A stretch of 64,000 nt of DNA from assembly GCF_013315695.1 (NCBI RefSeq), contig NZ_CP054353.1; one strand, 5' to 3'. Both the position numbers and the translations under genes were made by a program. Positions 13,140 to 56,232 of the stretch are shown here, in pieces. The DNA comes from Escherichia coli. GTDB taxonomy: Bacteria; Pseudomonadota; Gammaproteobacteria; Enterobacterales; Enterobacteriaceae. Position 1 is the stretch's first letter, and each line of letters begins with the position of its first letter. The notes below the pieces were generated by a model. It did no database searches, had not been told where the DNA came from, and saw nothing but the letters and a program-made list of their open reading frames with translations.

Positions 13140-13323
13140 AACAAAGCCGGGAATTACCCGGCTTTGTTATGGAATAAGGCGGTGCCTAACTCGACGTTTC
13201 GCCCGAGGGTTGATATAGCTACGCTGATATCAGAAGTTGGACGGCAGGCACCTTGTTGTGCGTCATTCGAATTTTATGTAGCACGTCCCGAAGGGGCTGA
13301 CATAAGTCGGTGAATGAGCCACT
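13140..13323 (-). ncRNA. glmY: small RNA GlmY
   Basis: Minus-strand sequence begins AGTGGCTCATTCACCGACTTATGTCAGCCCCTTCGGGACGTGC... and ends in a hairpin AAAGCCGGGTAATTCCCGGCTTTGTT; matches the GlmY sequence as I recall it; position between glrK and purL is as expected. Ends are approximate. Confidence 0.85.
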
Positions 13324-21925: not shown

Positions 21926-22118
21926 TATTCTGCTCTGGAAGTAGAGTGTTAATTATCTTATAGAGAAACCTTAACGCTATTATATTTATTTGATTGATGA
22001 AATTAGCATAATCATTCACTAAGTAAATTTATATAGTATCTGCCCAGACACTTATTTATAGTTATTAAAGGCGCGTCCGATTGGTTCACCGAACGCACCT
22101 TAAGTACGTTTCCTTGTG

Positions 22119-22199
22119 TTATAAGAACAGAAGGATCAGCTGTAAAACAGCAATGATGATTTTGATAACCCGTTTAATCAGGTATCGGCAATCAGTCAT
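22119..22199 (-). CDS. shoB: type I toxin-antitoxin small toxic membrane peptide ShoB (26 aa)
   Basis: Minus-strand ORF translating exactly to MTDCRYLIKRVIKIIIAVLQLILLFL followed by TAA; missing from the six-frame track because it is under 60 aa. The antisense sRNA ohsC should lie divergently upstream; I did not map it. Confidence 0.85.
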   Translation of the reverse strand: MTDCRYLIKRVIKIIIAVLQLILLFL

Positions 22200-22619
22200 T
22201 CGTTTTTCCTTAAACAAGGAATGCAGCCGTTCAGATTAGCCCTTAATCACCCCAAAACTGAACGTGCGAGTTATTGGAATCGAGTGCTGCACTCCACACC
22301 AGAGCTTTGACGACACCACTCGTTTCAATGGGGGAATTCAGTGGCATGGTGTAAAGCACAGCAATATTGCCAATAACGAAACCGATTTTAATGTACTTAT
22401 CAAAAAGCGGTCACGTTAATCTTTTCATCAATGTCGATTTCTTCGTAAAGGCTCGCGTTTTTTATGTCAGAGATTGCAAGTTGCTTGTACAGGATAACGA
22501 AATTGATCCATAATCATTTCTGTTGGAATCGTGTGCTGCACAAAATTAAAGTTGTAAAGTGAACCCCCCCGTTCCTTACCAGTTCGGGGGTTTTACTTTA
22601 TAAAGAGAACGGTATTTTT

Positions 22620-23000
22620 TTAACTTTCAATAATTACCGTGGCACAAGCATAGTGGCGTTCATCTGCCAGCGTTACATGCATATTTACAACGCCGAGCTT
22701 TTCCGCCAGTTTTAATGCCTCACCCCATAGCCGTAGCCGTGGTTTGCCGAGCTCATCATTGAATACTTCAAACTGATTAAACGCCAAACCATTGCGGATC
22801 CCGGTGCCAAACGCTTTTGCCGCCGCTTCTTTCACAGCAAAACGCTTTGCCAGAAAACGCACCGGCTGGTGGTGCGTTTTCCAAATTTCCCATTCGTTAT
22901 CGCTTAATACGCGGCGTGCCAGGCGCTCACCGGATCGGGCGATCACCGATTCAATGCGAGCGATCTCCACAATATCCGTACCTAAACCTAATATTGCCAT
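22620..23000 (-). CDS. acpS: holo-[acyl-carrier-protein] synthase
   Basis: 126-aa [20 protein letters not shown]..., canonical AcpS. Confidence 0.95.
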
Positions 23001-24482: not shown

Positions 24483-26095
<1,613 letters not shown>

Positions 26096-26337
26096 TCAGC
26101 ACACGAAACAGACCTGATATACATGGCTCTGCTAACTGCTTCGCTGCAGTTTCAGTTTACCGGTATATGGGGACCAACGCTGTTTCGTGTGCCGTGGCAA
26201 CCTGGAGGTGCCAACCTTAAACTTCGGGGGAATATTCTATACACAACGACGGGGGATGTCGTTAGCCACGGGAGATTTATCTCATAAATAATTCACGTTG
26301 TCGCCATAACGGCGACAACGTGAACGAAGATGGGCTA

Positions 26338-27327: not shown

Positions 27328-29127
<1,800 letters not shown>

Positions 29128-29324
29128 AAAGTATGATTATTGTGCCTTAATGCCCGGTTAACCAGGCTTTTAGAAGTCGCTGTTCTGAGCTTAACGTCTG
29201 TATTAATAGAAACGCCGCATTCTACACTACAACATTGAGGCGAGGAAATGTTCATACCGTATGGATTGTGGTATCTGGAAACGTCCTCGCATTTGTTATG
29301 CAAAATGCAACAAAGCCAGTGAAA

Positions 29325-29804
29325 TCACTGGCTCGCGTCTTCCGAAGATGTTTCAAATCGCACAAGGCCAGGCGGCAAGGCCACGCTTAAGATGATCGGT
29401 TGCCATTCTGCCCGGGCAGCAAACTTACGCGAGTAGCCACGTGCAATCAGGAATCCACCAACGCCACCGAGAATCGCACCGCATAATGCTGCAATATCTG
29501 AAGCAAAGAGTAGCTGAAATAGTGAAGCGATGAGGAATAGTCCCACCAACGGCGACATATAAACCAGTAATGCGGAGCTAAGCAGGCTGCCTTCGGCGAT
29601 TCCTAATTCTACTTTTTGCCCCGGCACTAACGGTTCATCACAGGGTACGACAATGGTATGCGTAGTTTGCGGGCCAAGTTTATTCAACACGCGGCTACCG
29701 CAACCGGCGCGTGAAGCGCAGCTGCTGCATGAGGCTTTAACATCACAACTAACCAGCGCCTGCCCGTTTTCCCAGGAGACGACGGTAGCCCACTCTTTGA
29801 TCAT
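29325..29804 (-). CDS. rseC: sigma-E regulatory protein RseC
   Basis: 159-aa ORF in the rpoE-rseABC operon; membrane protein. Confidence 0.9.
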   Translation of the reverse strand: MIKEWATVVSWENGQALVSCDVKASCSSCASRAGCGSRVLNKLGPQTTHTIVVPCDEPLVPGQKVELGIAEGSLLSSALLVYMSPLVGLFLIASLFQLLFASDIAALCGAILGGVGGFLIARGYSRKFAARAEWQPIILSVALPPGLVRFETSSEDASQ

Positions 29805-30757
29805 TGCGCTGCCCCGAACTTAATATTCTCGGCAATGCGTTTCGCCGTTTGCGGCGGCAGTTCACCGACAATGGTGATTTCGGCGTTATCACGTACGCTT
29901 GTACTGACGGTTCTGCGTCCGGTGCGCAACATCTGATCGGTGCTCGATGGCGTAGCGCGGTTAACGTTTACCGAAAAGCTGAATAATCCGTCGGAATAGA
30001 GACGTGATTCGATAGGCATGTTGTCCATCGTCGGTAGCGGACGTCGACTACTGGAAACTTCGCTAAAACCCTGTGGCAACCAGGTTGGCGTCCAGCTGAA
30101 TTTAGCTTTTTCACCTACAGGAACAGAAAGCAACGGCGGCAAATTTGCCTTCGCCAGCGTCTGCATACTGCTGCTGATATCCTGATTGACATTAAAAGCA
30201 ATCACGCGAAATTGTTCCAGCGTTTCACCATCGCGATCAAGGAGATCAACCCTCATCGGTAATTTCGATTCGGTGTCCATCCACACGATGTAGCTGTAGC
30301 GTGTACCATCTCGGGCAACCACGCGAATAACTTCGCAAAGACGATCAGCAATACGCGTGCGCCCGACGGAGATAAAGTCGTAGTAAGGAGAAAGGCGTTT
30401 GAAATCGGTATAGATGAGCGATGGCAGAGAATCAACAATGTAATCGCCATTAAGCGTGAACGGTTCAAGTCCCGGTTCAAAATAGCTGATCTCATTGCCG
30501 CGCTGTACCACTTCCCGGCGCGGGCCATCCATTTGCAACAATTGTGCAAGAGGACGGTTATCGAGGCGTGCATGTCGATAACGCAGAGACTCAACACCCT
30601 GTTTATTGATGCTGATGAATGACAGCTCGTAATTCAGTGACTGACTGGCCAGGTTCATCTGCTGTAATAACGCCCCGGACGCGGGAGTGGCCGAGGCGTT
30701 AGCAGAGAATAACAGGCTACCTGTCACTAATGACATGGCAAACCAAAGTTGCTTCAT
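29801..30757 (-). CDS. rseB: sigma-E regulatory protein RseB
   Basis: 318 aa with signal peptide, operon context. Confidence 0.93.
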   Translation of the reverse strand: MKQLWFAMSLVTGSLLFSANASATPASGALLQQMNLASQSLNYELSFISINKQGVESLRYRHARLDNRPLAQLLQMDGPRREVVQRGNEISYFEPGLEPFTLNGDYIVDSLPSLIYTDFKRLSPYYDFISVGRTRIADRLCEVIRVVARDGTRYSYIVWMDTESKLPMRVDLLDRDGETLEQFRVIAFNVNQDISSSMQTLAKANLPPLLSVPVGEKAKFSWTPTWLPQGFSEVSSSRRPLPTMDNMPIESRLYSDGLFSFSVNVNRATPSSTDQMLRTGRRTVSTSVRDNAEITIVGELPPQTAKRIAENIKFGAAQ

Positions 30758-36239: not shown

Positions 36240-36440
36240 TTCCGGGTTTAAGCCCGGAATTAAAAGTGCTGGCAAACGCAAAACTGCCTGATGCGCTACG
36301 CTTATCAGGCCTACATGGCTCATGCAATATATTGAATTTGCACGATCTTGTAGGCCGGATAAGGCGTTCACGCCGCATCCGGCATGAACAAAACGCACTT
36401 CGTCGACAAGTTGGGTGCCGGGTTTAAGCCCGGCATTATT
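36240..36440. repeat. REP/BIME-type extragenic palindrome cluster flanked by two identical palindromes
   Basis: REP-like units (GCCTGATGCGCTACGCTTATCAGGCCTAC; GTAGGCCGGATAAGGCGTTCACGCCGCATCCGGCA) bracketed by two copies of CCGGGTTTAAGCCCGG at about 36242 and 36419. Confidence 0.6.
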
Positions 36441-48071: not shown

Positions 48072-48191
48072 ATGCCTGGCAGTTCCCTACTCTCGCATGG
48101 GGAGACCCCACACTACCATCGGCGCTACGGCGTTTCACTTCTGAGTTCGGCATGGGGTCAGGTGGGACCACCGCGCTAAGGCCGCCAGGCA
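48072..48191 (-). rRNA. rrf: 5S ribosomal RNA
   Basis: 120 nt whose reverse complement is TGCCTGGCGGC...GGAACTGCCAGGCAT, the canonical E. coli 5S sequence. Confidence 0.97.
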
Positions 48192-48285
48192 AATTCTGTT
48201 TATCAGACCACTTCTGCGTTCTGATTTAATCTGTTATCAAGCTTACTTATCGATGTCTCTTCCGCCAAAACATCTTCGGCGTTGT

Positions 48286-51190
<2,905 letters not shown>

Positions 51191-51383
51191 CACAACCCGA
51201 AGATGTTTCTTTCGACTCATCATCGTGTTGCGAAAATTTGAGAGACTCACGAACAACTTTCGTTGTTCAGTGTTTCAATTTTCAGCTTGATCCAGATTTT
51301 TAAAGAGCAAATATCTTAAACATGACTCGTAAGTCATCTTTAACGATATTAAGGTCGGTGACTTTCACTCACAAACCAGCAAG

Positions 51384-51459
51384 TGGCGTCCCCTAGGGGA
51401 TTCGAACCCCTGTTACCGCCGTGAAAGGGCGGTGTCCTGGGCCTCTAGACGAAGGGGAC
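51384..51459 (-). tRNA. tRNA-Glu in the 16S-23S spacer
   Basis: Reverse complement is GTCCCCTTCGTCTAGAGGCCCAGGACACCGCCCTTTCACGGCGGTAACAGGGGTTCGAATCCCCTAGGGGACGCCA (76 nt). Confidence 0.97.
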
Positions 51460-51545
51460 GTATCAGTCTGCTTCGCAAGACGCCTTGCTTTTCACTTTCT
51501 ATCAGACAATCTGTGTGAGCACTTCAAAGTACGCTTCTTTAAGGT

Positions 51546-53086
<1,541 letters not shown>

Positions 53087-53529: not shown

Positions 53530-56103
53530 TTACTGGACGGCGACAATCCGGTCTTCATTAACTTCCAGGCGAATCACTTTACCCGGAACCAATTCACCAG
53601 ACAGTATTTGCTGTGCCAGCGGGTTTTCGATCTGCTGCTGAATTGCACGTTTCAGAGGACGTGCACCATAGACCGGATCGTAACCGTTCTCGCTCAGCAG
53701 TTTCAGCGCCTCGTCAGAAATGTGGATTTCATAACCACGTTCTTCCAGACGTTTATACAGACGTTTCAACTGAATCTGCGCAATCGACGCAATGTGCTGT
53801 TCACCCAGCGGATGGAAGACCACCACTTCATCGATACGGTTAATGAATTCCGGACGGAAGTTATGGCTTACCACACCGAGCACCAGCTCTTTCATGTGCG
53901 CATAATCCAGTTCACCGAAGCGTTCCTGAATCAAATCGGAACCGAGGTTAGAGGTCATAATGACAACCGTATTACGGAAGTCGACCGTTCTCCCCTGCCC
54001 GTCAGTCAGACGCCCATCATCCAATACCTGCAACAGAATGTTGAAGACATCCGGATGCGCTTTTTCCACTTCATCCAGCAGGATGACGGAATACGGACGA
54101 CGACGCACCGCTTCGGTCAGGTAGCCACCTTCTTCATAACCGACATATCCCGGAGGCGCACCAACCAGACGAGACACCGAGTGTTTCTCCATAAACTCGG
54201 ACATATCGATACGGACCATCGCCTCGTCGCTATCAAACATAAAGTTCGCCAGCGCCTTACAAAGCTCAGTTTTCCCCACACCCGTTGGGCCGAGGAACAG
54301 GAATGAACCAATCGGGCGATTTGGATCCGCCAGCCCCGCACGGCTACGACGAATAGCGTTAGATACCGCATCAACCGCTTCGTTCTGACCAATAACGCGA
54401 TGGTGCAGTTCTTGCTCCATACGCAGCAGTTTTTCGCGCTCGCTTTCCATCATGCGAGAAACCGGAATCCCCGTCCAACGCGCCAGCACTTCAGCAATTT
54501 CGGCATCGGTCACTTTATTACGCAACAGACGCATAGTTTTGCCTTCGAGCTGCGTTGCGGCTTCCAGTTGCTTTTCCAGTTCCGGGATTTTGCCGTATTG
54601 CAGTTCAGACATCCGCGCCAGGTCACCCACACGGCGAGCCTGTTCAATAGCGATTTTCGCCTGTTCCAGTTCCGCTTTAATGGTCTGCGTACCAGAAAGC
54701 GATGCTTTCTCTGCTTTCCACTCTTCTTCTAACTCGGAGTACTGACGTTCTTTGTCGCTCAGTTCTTCGTTGAGCATATCCAGGCGTTTTTTACTGGCTT
54801 CATCAGACTCTTTCATTAACGCCTGTTGTTCCAGTTTGAGCTGGATGATACGGCGATCGAGTCGGTCGAGTTCTTCTGGTTTTGAGTCAATCTGCATACG
54901 AATGCTGGATGCTGCTTCATCGATCAGGTCGATGGCTTTATCTGGCAGCTGACGGTCAGCAATGTAGCGATGAGACAACGTCGCCGCTGCAACAATTGCC
55001 GGGTCAGTAATTTGCACATGGTGGTGCAATTCGTAACGTTCTTTCAGGCCACGCAGAATCGCAATGGTATCTTCAACAGAAGGCTCGGCAACAAACACTT
55101 TTTGGAAACGACGTTCCAGCGCAGCATCTTTTTCGATGTACTGGCGATATTCGTCAAGCGTCGTGGCACCTACGCAGTGCAATTCACCACGCGCCAGCGC
55201 CGGTTTCAGCATGTTTCCGGCGTCCATTGCGCCATCGGCTTTACCCGCGCCGACCATGGTATGTAATTCGTCGATAAACAGGATGACGTTGCCTTCCTGT
55301 TTGGCAAGATCGTTAAGTACGCCTTTTAAACGTTCTTCAAACTCACCGCGATATTTCGCCCCAGCCACCAGCGCGCCCATATCCAGCGCCAGTACGCGGC
55401 GGCCTTTCAACCCTTCGGGCACTTCGCCGTTGATAATACGCTGCGCCAGACCTTCAACGATGGCAGTCTTACCGACGCCGGGTTCACCAATCAGTACCGG
55501 GTTATTTTTAGTACGACGTTGCAGCACCTGAATGGTACGGCGAATTTCTTCATCACGACCAATCACCGGATCGAGTTTACCCTGTTCGGCTCGTTCGGTA
55601 AGGTCGATGGTATATTTTTTCAAAGCCTGACGTTGGTCTTCAGCACCTTGATCGTTCACGCTTTCACCTCCACGCATTTGTTCAATCGCTTGAGTAATGT
55701 TGGCGGTGGTCGCCCCTGCTGCTTTCAGGATGTCGGCCAGCGTGCCGCGAGACTCAAGTGCCGCCAGAACGAACAGTTCTGACGAGATAAAGTTATCACC
55801 ACGTTTTTGCGCCAGCTTGTCGCAAAGATTAAGAACGCGCACCAGATCCTGTGATGGCTGGACATCACCACCAGTACCTTCAACCTGCGGTAAACGATTT
55901 AATGCCTGATTGATATCTGTGCGCAACTGGCCAGCATTTATGCCAGCGGATGTTAATAAAGGACTAACCGAACCCCCTTCCTGATTCAGCAGGGCGCTCA
56001 TTAAATGAAGTGGTTCGATGAATTGGTTGTCGTGCCCGAGTGCAAGTGATTGGGCATCGGCAAGAGCAAGCTGGAATTTATTAGTAAGACGATCCAGACG
56101 CAT
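53530..56103 (-). CDS. clpB: ClpB disaggregase chaperone (AAA+)
   Basis: 857 aa from [18 protein letters not shown]; two AAA+ modules with Walker A/B and a coiled-coil middle domain. Confidence 0.97.
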
Positions 56104-56141
56104 AACTCCTCCCATAACGGATCAAAGTTGCTACTGGAGAT

Positions 56142-56171
56142 TAAATGAGGTCATCCCTCAATTATTCAAGG
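56142..56171 (-). promoter_or_regulatory. sigma32 heat-shock promoter of clpB
   Basis: Minus-strand CTTGAA-N14-CCTCATTTA, matching the sigma32 consensus (CTTGAA / CCCCATnT) upstream of clpB. Confidence 0.55.
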
Positions 56172-56232
56172 TTATTGACCAGATTAATGTGAAAAGAAAA
56201 TCACGCGTACCGGATCGTCTTGATTCTTTAGG

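What the first reader, a model, noticed from the sequence alone, without database searches (positions are those of the whole stretch)
21926..22619. shoB type I toxin locus, with a near-identical 19-bp motif repeated 249 bp apart
The 700-bp interval between yfhL and acpS has no track ORF but encodes the 26-aa toxin ShoB (exact peptide match) on the minus strand. The same interval carries two copies of TTGGAATCG(A/T)GTGCTGCAC at 22274..22292 and 22523..22541, and a GC-stem plus T-run hairpin at about 22565..22595. The repeated motif could be a promoter or operator for the toxin/antisense pair or a trace of a duplicated module.
Basis: partly seen in the sequence, partly recalled or inferred. Interest (0 to 1): 0.35.

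Follow-up and report, generated by a model that had tools for sequence, protein, structure and literature searches.

The report
OhsC antitoxin RNA pairing site on shoB
The repeated 19-base motif is the already published stretch through which the small antitoxin RNA OhsC base-pairs with the leader of the shoB toxin mRNA in E. coli, so the finding is real but ordinary; this strain carries a common alternative "lock-and-key" version of the motif.

Summary
The 19-mer occurs at 22274-22292 and 22523-22541 (18/19 identical), with none expected by chance. The interval is the known E. coli shoB/ohsC type I toxin-antitoxin locus.

Copy 2 is nucleotides 2-20 of the OhsC sRNA (Rfam RF02495, 22522-22599, + strand). 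Copy 1 lies in the 5' UTR of the shoB mRNA (- strand), 75-93 nt upstream of the start codon. A direct repeat transcribed in opposite directions gives two complementary RNAs. This is the published [quoted passage not shown]. It is not a promoter or operator, and I found no trace of a larger duplication. The hairpin is the OhsC terminator.

Three results go beyond that:
- The central 9 nt exist as two alleles that switch together at both sites. The window type is in about 31% of 5,426 complete E. coli genomes and the K-12/ancestral type in most of the rest. I found only one mixed genome.
- Cross-allele duplexes are predicted to be 11-20 kcal/mol weaker than cognate ones.
- The window allele has a central U·U mismatch.

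The 5' end of shoB is also predicted to mask the same target and covaries with it, which fits a tisB-like standby model. That last step is inferred, not shown.

Verdict: already known, low interest.

The parts
22119..22199 (-). shoB coding sequence (26-aa hydrophobic toxin plus stop codon)
   Evidence: The translation is identical to the annotated K-12 ShoB, WP_000128776.1.
22206..22221 (-). shoB Shine-Dalgarno AAGGAA (22211-22206) in a small predicted hairpin with UUCCUU (22221-22216)
   Evidence: The published RBS is AAGGAA (PMC11264685). The hairpin appears in the MFE and consensus folds and is invariant in 12 haplotypes. RBS sequestration is a prediction.
22274..22292 (-). Repeat copy 1: the OhsC target in the shoB 5' UTR (mRNA nt about 87-105, 75-93 nt upstream of the AUG)
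   Evidence: for the motif. The predicted duplex with the OhsC 5' end is -34.2 kcal/mol. It changes allele together with copy 2.
22347..22377 (-). 5' end of the shoB primary transcript (nt 2-32), predicted to pair with nt 78-109 and so mask the OhsC target
   Evidence: Consensus fold. In 9 distinct haplotypes 99.4% of cells are paired, and pairs 9-102 (GC/AU/GU) and 11-100 (GC<->AU) covary. The opening energy of the target drops from 14-18 to 6-9 kcal/mol when 20 nt or more are trimmed. This is inferred.
22385..22414 (-). shoB promoter: -35 GTGACC (22414-22409), -10 TAAAAT (22390-22385); start site inferred at about 22377-22379
   Evidence: Promoter scan. PMC11264685 Table 2 names the same hexamers. 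A start near 22378 and an end near 22060 give about 319 nt, against the published ~320-nt transcript (PMC5668327).
22060..22101 (-). shoB terminator hairpin (22068-22101) followed by a U-rich tail
   Evidence: Fold of -22.4 kcal/mol, z = -5.9. Haplotypes show compensatory changes in the stem.
22485..22514 (+). ohsC promoter: -35 TTGTAC, -10 CATAAT
   Evidence: Promoter scan. PMC11264685 reports the TTGTAC variant in 33.1% of strains and CATAAT in 100%.
22522..22599 (+). OhsC antitoxin sRNA
   Evidence: Rfam RF02495 ohsC_RNA: 88 bits against a gathering score of 50, full length 1-77.
22523..22541 (+). Repeat copy 2: the pairing region at the OhsC 5' end (nt 2-20)
   Evidence: The literature states that the OhsC 5' end shares 19 nt of complementarity with the shoB 5' UTR (PMC3919570).
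22556..22599 (+). It is nearly palindromic and may also end the convergent acpS transcript.
   Evidence: Rfam structure line and fold. PMC11264685 notes the near-palindrome. The bidirectional role is inference.

Best explanation
The interval is the chromosomal shoB/ohsC type I toxin-antitoxin locus. shoB is transcribed leftward and ohsC rightward from divergent promoters whose start sites are about 144 bp apart.

The two 19-bp direct repeats are read from opposite strands. The shoB mRNA therefore carries the reverse complement of copy 1 in its 5' UTR, and OhsC carries copy 2 at its extreme 5' end. The two RNAs can form a 19-20 bp duplex. In this strain the duplex is 9 bp, then a U·U mismatch, then 9 bp, plus a terminal G·U pair. 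Pairing represses ShoB synthesis.

The steps rest on different bases:
- Shown here: the sequence identities, the RNA family match, the complementarity, and the concerted allele change.
- Taken from the literature for K-12: ShoB toxicity is abolished by OhsC; only a ~280-nt 5'-processed form of the ~320-nt mRNA is translated; there is an RNase III cleavage site in the duplex region.
- Inferred: the target lies too far from the RBS to occlude it. The most likely mechanism is therefore tisB/istR-1-like. The first ~35 nt of the primary transcript mask the site. 5' processing exposes it as a ribosome standby or loading region for an RBS that sits in a small hairpin. OhsC competes for that region and triggers RNase III cleavage.
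For: **The repeat and the RNA.** The repeat is exact in position and not due to chance. Copy 2 is nt 2-20 of a full-length Rfam OhsC match. The ShoB peptide is identical to the K-12 protein.

**Promoters.** The promoter hexamers found by scan are the published ones (PMC11264685).

**Published complementarity and mechanism data.** PMC3919570, PMC5397157 and PMC2887945 describe the 19-nt complementarity of the OhsC 5' end to the shoB 5' UTR. PMC5668327 and PMC5397157 report the ~320-nt inert and ~280-nt active forms. PMC6212723 reports an RNase III site in the duplex.

**Concerted allele change.** K-12 and four other Escherichia lineages have TTGAGGGTGC(A/G)TGCTGCAC at both sites. The window type has TTGGAATCG(A/T)GTGCTGCAC at both. 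The rest of the 5' UTR is almost invariant.

**Population counts.** 1,690 of 5,426 genomes have window-type copy 2 and about 1,696 have window-type copy 1. Only one mixed genome was found.

**Differences between the two copies.** In the ancestral-type haplotypes every single-base difference between the copies has A in copy 1 and G in copy 2. That gives a G·U wobble in the RNA duplex, at position 7 in L019, position 9 in L012, and position 11 in L007, L008, L011, L012 and L015. This is a strand-specific signature of RNA pairing.

**Duplex energies.** Cognate duplexes are -34.2 kcal/mol (window) and -41.4 (K-12). Cross-allele duplexes are -21.5 and -23.0.

**Masking helix.**
Against: No experiment was done on this strain, and transcript ends here are inferred from promoter position, the Rfam match and published lengths.

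- The window allele has a central U·U mismatch. It is predicted to be 7 kcal/mol weaker than the K-12 duplex, so repression strength in this lineage is unknown.
- One natural strain (Z1323CEC0015) carries a non-cognate pair and is evidently viable, so pairing may not be essential under all conditions.
- The masking helix rests on few independent substitutions, and the structure was derived from the same sequences.
- After in-silico trimming the target still has about 7-9 kcal/mol of local structure.
- The primary paper (Fozo 2008) could not be read.
Confidence: 0.9

Rival explanations
1. The 19-mer is a DNA operator. The same DNA-binding protein (for example CpxR, which is reported to bind two boxes in this intergenic region) binds both copies to co-regulate the divergent genes.
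For: CpxR regulates shoB and ohsC and shifts DNA from this region (PMC9600279). PMC11264685 places box CB2 over the ohsC -35. A repeated motif near divergent promoters is a classic operator layout.
Against: - Both copies are downstream of the start sites (+2..+20 and about +87..+105).
- The motif contains no GTAAA half-site (direct reading; the CpxR consensus GTAAA-N5-GTAAA is from general knowledge).
- A protein site would not tolerate replacement of 7 of its 9 central bases.
- The consistent A(copy 1)/G(copy 2) asymmetry makes sense only for RNA wobble pairing.
Confidence: 0.03
2. The repeat is a functionless remnant of a larger segmental duplication, that is, a duplicated toxin/antisense module.
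For: A trans-encoded antisense must have arisen somehow, and duplication of the target segment is one plausible origin. RNAduplex on the full RNAs draws a long collinear but gappy pairing.
Against: - Flanks on either side of the 19-mers align no better than shuffled sequence (scores 14 against 12.9-13.2 ± 2.1-2.2, p = 0.34-0.40).
- The promoter regions are not alike (p = 0.76).
- A neutral remnant would not switch allele in concert at both sites while the neighbouring UTR stays invariant.
Confidence: 0.03
3. The pairing is the same but the mechanism is different. Either OhsC acts mainly by RNase III-dependent destruction of the mRNA, or it interferes with translation of an upstream reading frame coupled to shoB (as in mok/hok), rather than by competing with standby ribosomes.
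For: An RNase III site was detected in the shoB/OhsC duplex region (PMC6212723). In all 12 other haplotypes a 50-codon frame runs through the OhsC target and ends in UGA overlapping the shoB AUG (AUGA).
Against: - The upstream frame has no Shine-Dalgarno sequence.
- Its AUG (nt 32) lies in the segment removed by the ~40-nt processing that yields the active mRNA.
- Its substitutions between haplotypes are all non-synonymous.
- It is truncated by a frameshift in this very window.
- For tisB and zorO, RNase III cleavage accompanies repression and the site competed for is a standby site (PMC4147584, PMC5668327). Nothing decisive is known for shoB.
Confidence: 0.25

Closest known systems
shoB/ohsC of E. 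coli K-12 (formerly ryfB/ryfC; Kawano 2005, Fozo 2008)
   Same: - Same chromosomal site (yfhL-acpS).
- Identical ShoB peptide.
- Same promoter hexamers.
- OhsC matches the Rfam family over its full length.
- Same 19-nt register of complementarity.
   Different: - 7 of the 9 central bases of the pairing block differ from K-12 at both sites.
- The duplex has a U·U mismatch where K-12 is perfect.
- The interval is only 91% identical to K-12.
- The window also carries a rare 1-nt deletion in the 5' UTR (10 of 5,396 genomes) and a weaker OhsC terminator stem.
tisB/istR-1 (E. coli)
   Same: - Divergent, non-overlapping genes.
- The antitoxin 5' end pairs about 20 nt to a site roughly 100 nt upstream of a sequestered RBS.
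- The primary transcript is inert and a 5'-processed form is active.
- RNase III cleaves the duplex.
   Different: - For tisB the standby site and its 5' masking structure are experimentally shown (PMC7708055). For shoB they are only predicted here.
- tisB is under LexA control, whereas shoB/ohsC is reported to be under CpxR.
- The toxins are unrelated.
zorO/orzO (E. coli O157:H7)
   Same: - Divergent arrangement.
- 18-nt pairing by the 5' end of the sRNA to a long 5' UTR.
- Variation in the pairing block gives paralogue or allele specificity (OrzP does not repress zorO).
   Different: In zor/orz the specificity variants are tandem paralogues within one genome. In shoB/ohsC they are alternative alleles of a single-copy locus.
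hok/sok and ldr/rdl (classical cis-encoded type I systems)
   Same: Each has a small hydrophobic toxin, an antisense RNA antitoxin and an inert full-length mRNA.
   Different: In those systems the antisense is transcribed from the opposite strand of the same DNA, with 60 nt or more of perfect complementarity. Here the antitoxin gene is about 230 bp away and the complementarity comes from a short direct repeat.

Membership tests
shoB/ohsC type I toxin-antitoxin locus | 26-aa hydrophobic ShoB ORF | tested here: met
   window 22199..22119 (-) gives MTDCRYLIKRVIKIIIAVLQLILLFL, identical to the annotated K-12 ShoB. No NCBIfam HMM exists for it.
shoB/ohsC type I toxin-antitoxin locus | OhsC sRNA gene | tested here: met
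   Rfam RF02495: 88 bits (gathering score 50), model positions 1-77 of 77, at 22522-22599 +.
shoB/ohsC type I toxin-antitoxin locus | Position between yfhL and acpS, single copy, chromosomal | tested here: met
   Flanking ORFs. 5,425 of 5,426 E. coli genomes match at this site, all on chromosomes.
shoB/ohsC type I toxin-antitoxin locus | 19 nt of complementarity between the OhsC 5' end and the shoB 5' UTR | tested here: met
   18 of 19 Watson-Crick pairs plus one U·U, and a flanking G·U; duplex -34.2 kcal/mol. K-12 has 19 of 19 in the same register.
shoB/ohsC type I toxin-antitoxin locus | ShoB is toxic and OhsC relieves the toxicity | not testable with these tools
   Reported for K-12 (Fozo 2008, as cited in PMC5668327). 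Not tested for this allele.
Divergent trans-encoded type I systems (tisB/istR-1, zorO/orzO, dinQ/agrB, shoB/ohsC) | Toxin and antitoxin genes are divergent and non-overlapping | tested here: met
   The shoB start is at about 22378 (-) and the ohsC start at 22522 (+). The promoters sit back to back.
Divergent trans-encoded type I systems (tisB/istR-1, zorO/orzO, dinQ/agrB, shoB/ohsC) | The antitoxin target lies in the 5' UTR, distant from the RBS | tested here: met
   The target at 22274-22292 is 75-93 nt upstream of the AUG at 22199.
Divergent trans-encoded type I systems (tisB/istR-1, zorO/orzO, dinQ/agrB, shoB/ohsC) | Inert primary transcript in which a 5' element masks the standby/antitoxin site, with activation by 5' processing | tested here: inconclusive
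   A predicted helix pairs nt 2-32 with nt 78-109. It is paired in all 9 haplotypes, with 2 covarying pairs. Trimming lowers the target opening energy by 7-10 kcal/mol and leaves the RBS unchanged. These are predictions only. Processing is reported in the literature for K-12.
Divergent trans-encoded type I systems (tisB/istR-1, zorO/orzO, dinQ/agrB, shoB/ohsC) | Ribosome standby at the target site; RNase III cleavage of the duplex | not testable with these tools
   An RNase III site in the duplex region is reported for MG1655 (PMC6212723). Standby binding has not been studied for shoB (PMC5397157, PMC5668327).
Cis-encoded antisense type I systems (hok/sok type) | The antisense RNA is transcribed opposite its target from the same DNA | tested here: not met
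   The OhsC gene (22522-22599) does not overlap the shoB transcription unit (about 22060-22378).
Protein operator (for example a CpxR box) | The motif lies in a promoter or operator position and matches the binding consensus | tested here: not met
   Both copies lie inside transcribed regions. The 19-mer has no GTAAA half-site (direct reading). Its central 9 nt are replaced between alleles.

The most novel reading that the evidence does not exclude
E. coli maintains two mutually incompatible specificity alleles of the single-copy shoB/ohsC pair, in about 31% and about 69% of genomes. The switch was made in concert at three places: the OhsC 5' end, the shoB target, and the 5' end of shoB's own mRNA. 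This would imply that the mRNA's 5' end is a cis-acting mask competing with OhsC for one standby-like site that 5' processing exposes. The derived allele keeps a central U·U mismatch. One natural recombinant (Z1323CEC0015) carries a non-cognate pair. The 2024 survey left open whether pairing is preserved across strains; the counts here suggest that it is.
Probability: 0.45. Interest if true: 0.4.

Novelty: already known. Interest (0 to 1): 0.2.

Why it matters
For the scan, the result explains the finding away. The repeat is the known antitoxin-target pairing determinant of a characterised locus.

It is still a useful worked example. A short direct repeat that straddles divergent promoters, with one copy at the very start of a terminator-bearing small RNA, is the genomic footprint of a trans-encoded antisense pair. 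The same signature could flag uncharacterised pairs elsewhere.

The side results have some modest value for specialists:
- They give a natural specificity swap with which to test OhsC pairing rules.
- They give a concrete, testable model for why only the 5'-processed shoB mRNA is active.
- They address a point that PMC11264685 explicitly left open.

Tried and rejected
- **Extended homology around the two copies.** Tested in case of a duplicated module: none was found. The long collinear "duplex" that RNAduplex drew on the full RNAs is therefore not meaningful beyond the first 20 nt.
- **Homology between the two promoter/5' regions as an inverted duplication.** None was found (p = 0.76). The two RNA 5' ends resemble each other only marginally (p about 0.03), as expected from sharing a target.
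- **The second repeat family.** D2 (14 nt, 22373/22494), D3, D4 and the inverted pairs were considered. D2 is not a repeat in K-12 or the other haplotypes, and the rest are 10-nt two-copy matches. I treated all of them as chance.
- **Terminator scan.** It found nothing, which is a limit of its loop-size rule. Folding and Rfam show both terminators.
- **NCBIfam scan of ShoB.** No model matched.
- **Primary papers.** Fozo 2008 (PMC2597788) and Fozo 2012 (by DOI and by a guessed PMC id) are not held. What I say about them comes from papers that cite them.
- **Supplement of PMC11264685.** No motif strings were found in it.
- **Genome-collection scan with the OhsC terminator 19-mer.** Real loci were found only in Escherichia. 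The Euryarchaeota MAG hit is an unrelated chance match, and the 231-bp Terasakiella contig looks like E. coli contamination. E. albertii and E. whittamii loci were cut before copy 1.
- **Engineered 131-mers with pair 11-100 broken.** They have no exact match in 5,426 genomes. This is weak evidence, because only two sequence backgrounds were tested.

Full report
**1. The observation**

Allowing two mismatches, they are the only matches in the 64-kb window, and none is expected in shuffled sequence.

The interval lies between yfhL (ends 21925) and acpS (22620-23000, - strand). The minus-strand ORF 22199..22119 encodes MTDCRYLIKRVIKIIIAVLQLILLFL, identical to the annotated K-12 ShoB.

The window is E. 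coli. This interval is 100% identical to strain MS 21-1 and only 91% identical to K-12.

**2. What the two copies are**

Rfam's ohsC_RNA model (RF02495) matches 22522-22599 on the + strand over its full length, at 88 bits against a gathering score of 50. Copy 2 is therefore nt 2-20 of the OhsC antitoxin sRNA. It sits directly downstream of a promoter with -35 TTGTAC and -10 CATAAT (22485-22514).

On the other strand, a GTGACC-18-TAAAAT promoter at 22414-22385 places the shoB start near 22378. A strong hairpin at 22068-22101 (z = -5.9) ends the transcript near 22060. The length is therefore about 319 nt, which agrees with the published ~320-nt shoB mRNA (PMC5668327, PMC5397157). Both pairs of promoter hexamers are the ones listed for this locus in PMC11264685.

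Copy 1 thus lies at about +87..+105 of the shoB mRNA, 75-93 nt upstream of the AUG.

Because the two copies are direct repeats transcribed in opposite directions, the two RNAs are complementary there. [quoted passage not shown] The predicted duplex in this strain is 10 pairs (including a terminal G·U), a U·U mismatch, then 9 pairs, at -34.2 kcal/mol.

**3.

- *Promoter or operator.* Both copies are inside the transcribed regions, not in the promoters.
- *Duplicated module.* Sequence on either side of the 19-mers aligns no better than shuffles (p = 0.34-0.40), and the two promoter regions are unrelated.

**4. Conservation**

I fetched eight E. coli haplotypes spanning 86-98% identity to the window. 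I also fetched loci from six Escherichia genomes in the species-representative collection.

The shoB ORF and almost the whole 5' UTR (22097-22365) are nearly invariant, even across Escherichia species. The central 9 nt of the motif come in two forms:

| Form | Sequence at both sites | Found in |
|---|---|---|
| K-12 / ancestral type | TTG-AGGGTGC(A/G)T-GCTGCAC | K-12 and the other Escherichia lineages |
| Window type | TTG-GAATCG(A/T)GT-GCTGCAC | the window haplotype |

Seven of the nine positions differ between the two forms, and the change is present at both sites together.

I then queried all 5,426 complete E. coli genomes with chimeric sequences.

- 1,690 genomes carry window-type copy 2 and about 1,696 carry window-type copy 1. 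This is about 31%, which matches the 33.1% reported for the linked TTGTAC -35 variant in PMC11264685.
- About 3,128 carry the K-12-type copy 2.
- Only one genome has a mixed configuration: strain Z1323CEC0015, with a K-12-type target and a window-type OhsC. It carries a short window-type patch (22490-22533) in a K-12-like background.

Predicted cross-allele duplexes are -21.5 and -23.0 kcal/mol, against -34.2 and -41.4 for cognate pairs.

In the ancestral-type haplotypes, every single-base difference between the two copies has A in copy 1 and G in copy 2. This occurs at position 7 in L019, position 9 in L012, and position 11 in L007, L008, L011, L012 and L015. In RNA each is a G·U wobble. That strand-specific asymmetry fits RNA pairing and does not fit a DNA-binding site. 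The window type is the exception, with a true U·U mismatch.

[quoted passage not shown] The counts here indicate that the variation is concerted.

**5. Mechanism**

*From the literature.* OhsC abolishes ShoB toxicity. The ~320-nt primary transcript is not translated, whereas a ~280-nt 5'-processed form is (PMC5668327, PMC5397157). An RNase III cleavage site maps to the duplex region (PMC6212723). How OhsC blocks translation from 75-93 nt upstream has not been studied.

*From folding and alignment.* Nt 2-32 of the shoB mRNA are predicted to pair with nt 78-109, which covers the whole OhsC target. In nine distinct haplotypes 99.4% of the cells are paired. Pair 9-102 appears as G-C, A-U and G·U, pair 11-100 switches G-C to A-U with the allele, and pair 13-98 switches U-A to U·G. 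The controls are weak, because there are few independent events and the structure was derived from the same sequences.

Removing 20-44 nt from the 5' end in silico lowers the energy needed to open the 19-nt target from 14-18 to 6-9 kcal/mol. The RBS opening energy stays at about 7 kcal/mol. The Shine-Dalgarno sequence sits in a small invariant hairpin.

*Best-supported model (inferred).* As for tisB/istR-1, the 5' end masks an upstream loading (standby) site, processing exposes it, and OhsC competes for it and recruits RNase III.

*Rivals I cannot exclude.* One is mainly RNase III-driven decay. The other is coupling to an upstream 50-codon frame that ends in AUGA at the shoB start in every other haplotype. 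That frame has no SD sequence. Its AUG lies in the segment removed by processing. Its substitutions are all non-synonymous. It is frameshifted in this window by a rare deletion (10 of 5,396 genomes).

**6. Comparison and verdict**

The locus meets every sequence-level criterion of shoB/ohsC and of the divergent trans-encoded class of type I systems. It is not a cis-overlapping antisense system and not an operator. The finding itself is already known.

The window differs from the K-12 reference in four ways:
- the alternative pairing allele with its U·U mismatch;
- the TTGTAC -35 variant;
- a weaker OhsC terminator stem;
- a rare 1-nt deletion in the UTR.

The allele dimorphism, the three-site covariation and the masking model are incremental and need experiments. 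Interest is low (0.2).

Noticed in passing
window 22243-22347 (- strand); L001 597-761 (-): In all 12 other haplotypes examined, including other Escherichia species, a 50-codon frame starts at the AUG at shoB mRNA nt 32 (with an in-frame GUG at nt 20). It runs through the OhsC target and stops at a UGA overlapping the shoB AUG (AUGA). In the window it is cut to 34 codons by a 1-nt deletion near 22246. The frame has no SD sequence, and its substitutions between haplotypes are all non-synonymous.
   Followed up: partly
window 22246-22250: The window has a 1-nt deletion plus a C>T change in the otherwise invariant shoB 5' UTR. Only 10 of 5,396 complete E. coli genomes share this 76-nt stretch exactly.
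   Followed up: partly
L018 (NZ_CP148423.1, strain Z1323CEC0015), equivalent to window 22490-22533: This is the only genome found with a non-cognate pair: a K-12-type shoB target with a window-type ohsC promoter and 5' end. It appears as a short mosaic patch. The predicted duplex is only about -21 kcal/mol.
   Followed up: partly
L009 (NZ_CP144930.1) and L020 (NZ_CP135595.1): Insertion sequences (an IS5-like ISKpn26 and an IS1A) have replaced or interrupted shoB while ohsC remains. These are antitoxin-only loci of the kind PMC11264685 reports.
   Followed up: no
window 21926-22060: The AT-rich spacer between yfhL and the shoB terminator is by far the most variable part of the interval. It has many substitutions in L007, L008 and L012 and a deletion of about 77 bp in L015. 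No feature was identified there.
   Followed up: no
window 22068-22101 (-) and 22556-22599 (+): The shoB terminator stem shows compensatory changes between haplotypes. The window's OhsC terminator has CCCCCCC/GUGAA where K-12 has AAAACCCCC. The whole OhsC RNA folds at -19.5 kcal/mol in the window against -28.5 in K-12. The hairpin is nearly palindromic and may also terminate acpS.
   Followed up: no
window 13176-13323, 26011-26225, 29009-29840, 36307-36349, 48074-53086, 56084-56222: Other Rfam matches above gathering score are: GlmY (-), rncO (-), AsrC antisense of rseC (+), ES036 (-), an rRNA operon with a tRNA and StyR-44 (-), and RyfD (-). All are expected for this E. coli region.
   Followed up: no
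L016 (Euryarchaeota MAG PBMR01000007.1) and L017 (Terasakiella sp. PR1, 231-bp contig): The 19-mer from the OhsC terminator loop hits an archaeal MAG in an unrelated sequence context, which is a chance match. It also hits a 231-bp "Terasakiella" contig that matches K-12-type E. coli ohsC over the stretch examined, which is probably contamination of that assembly.
   Followed up: no
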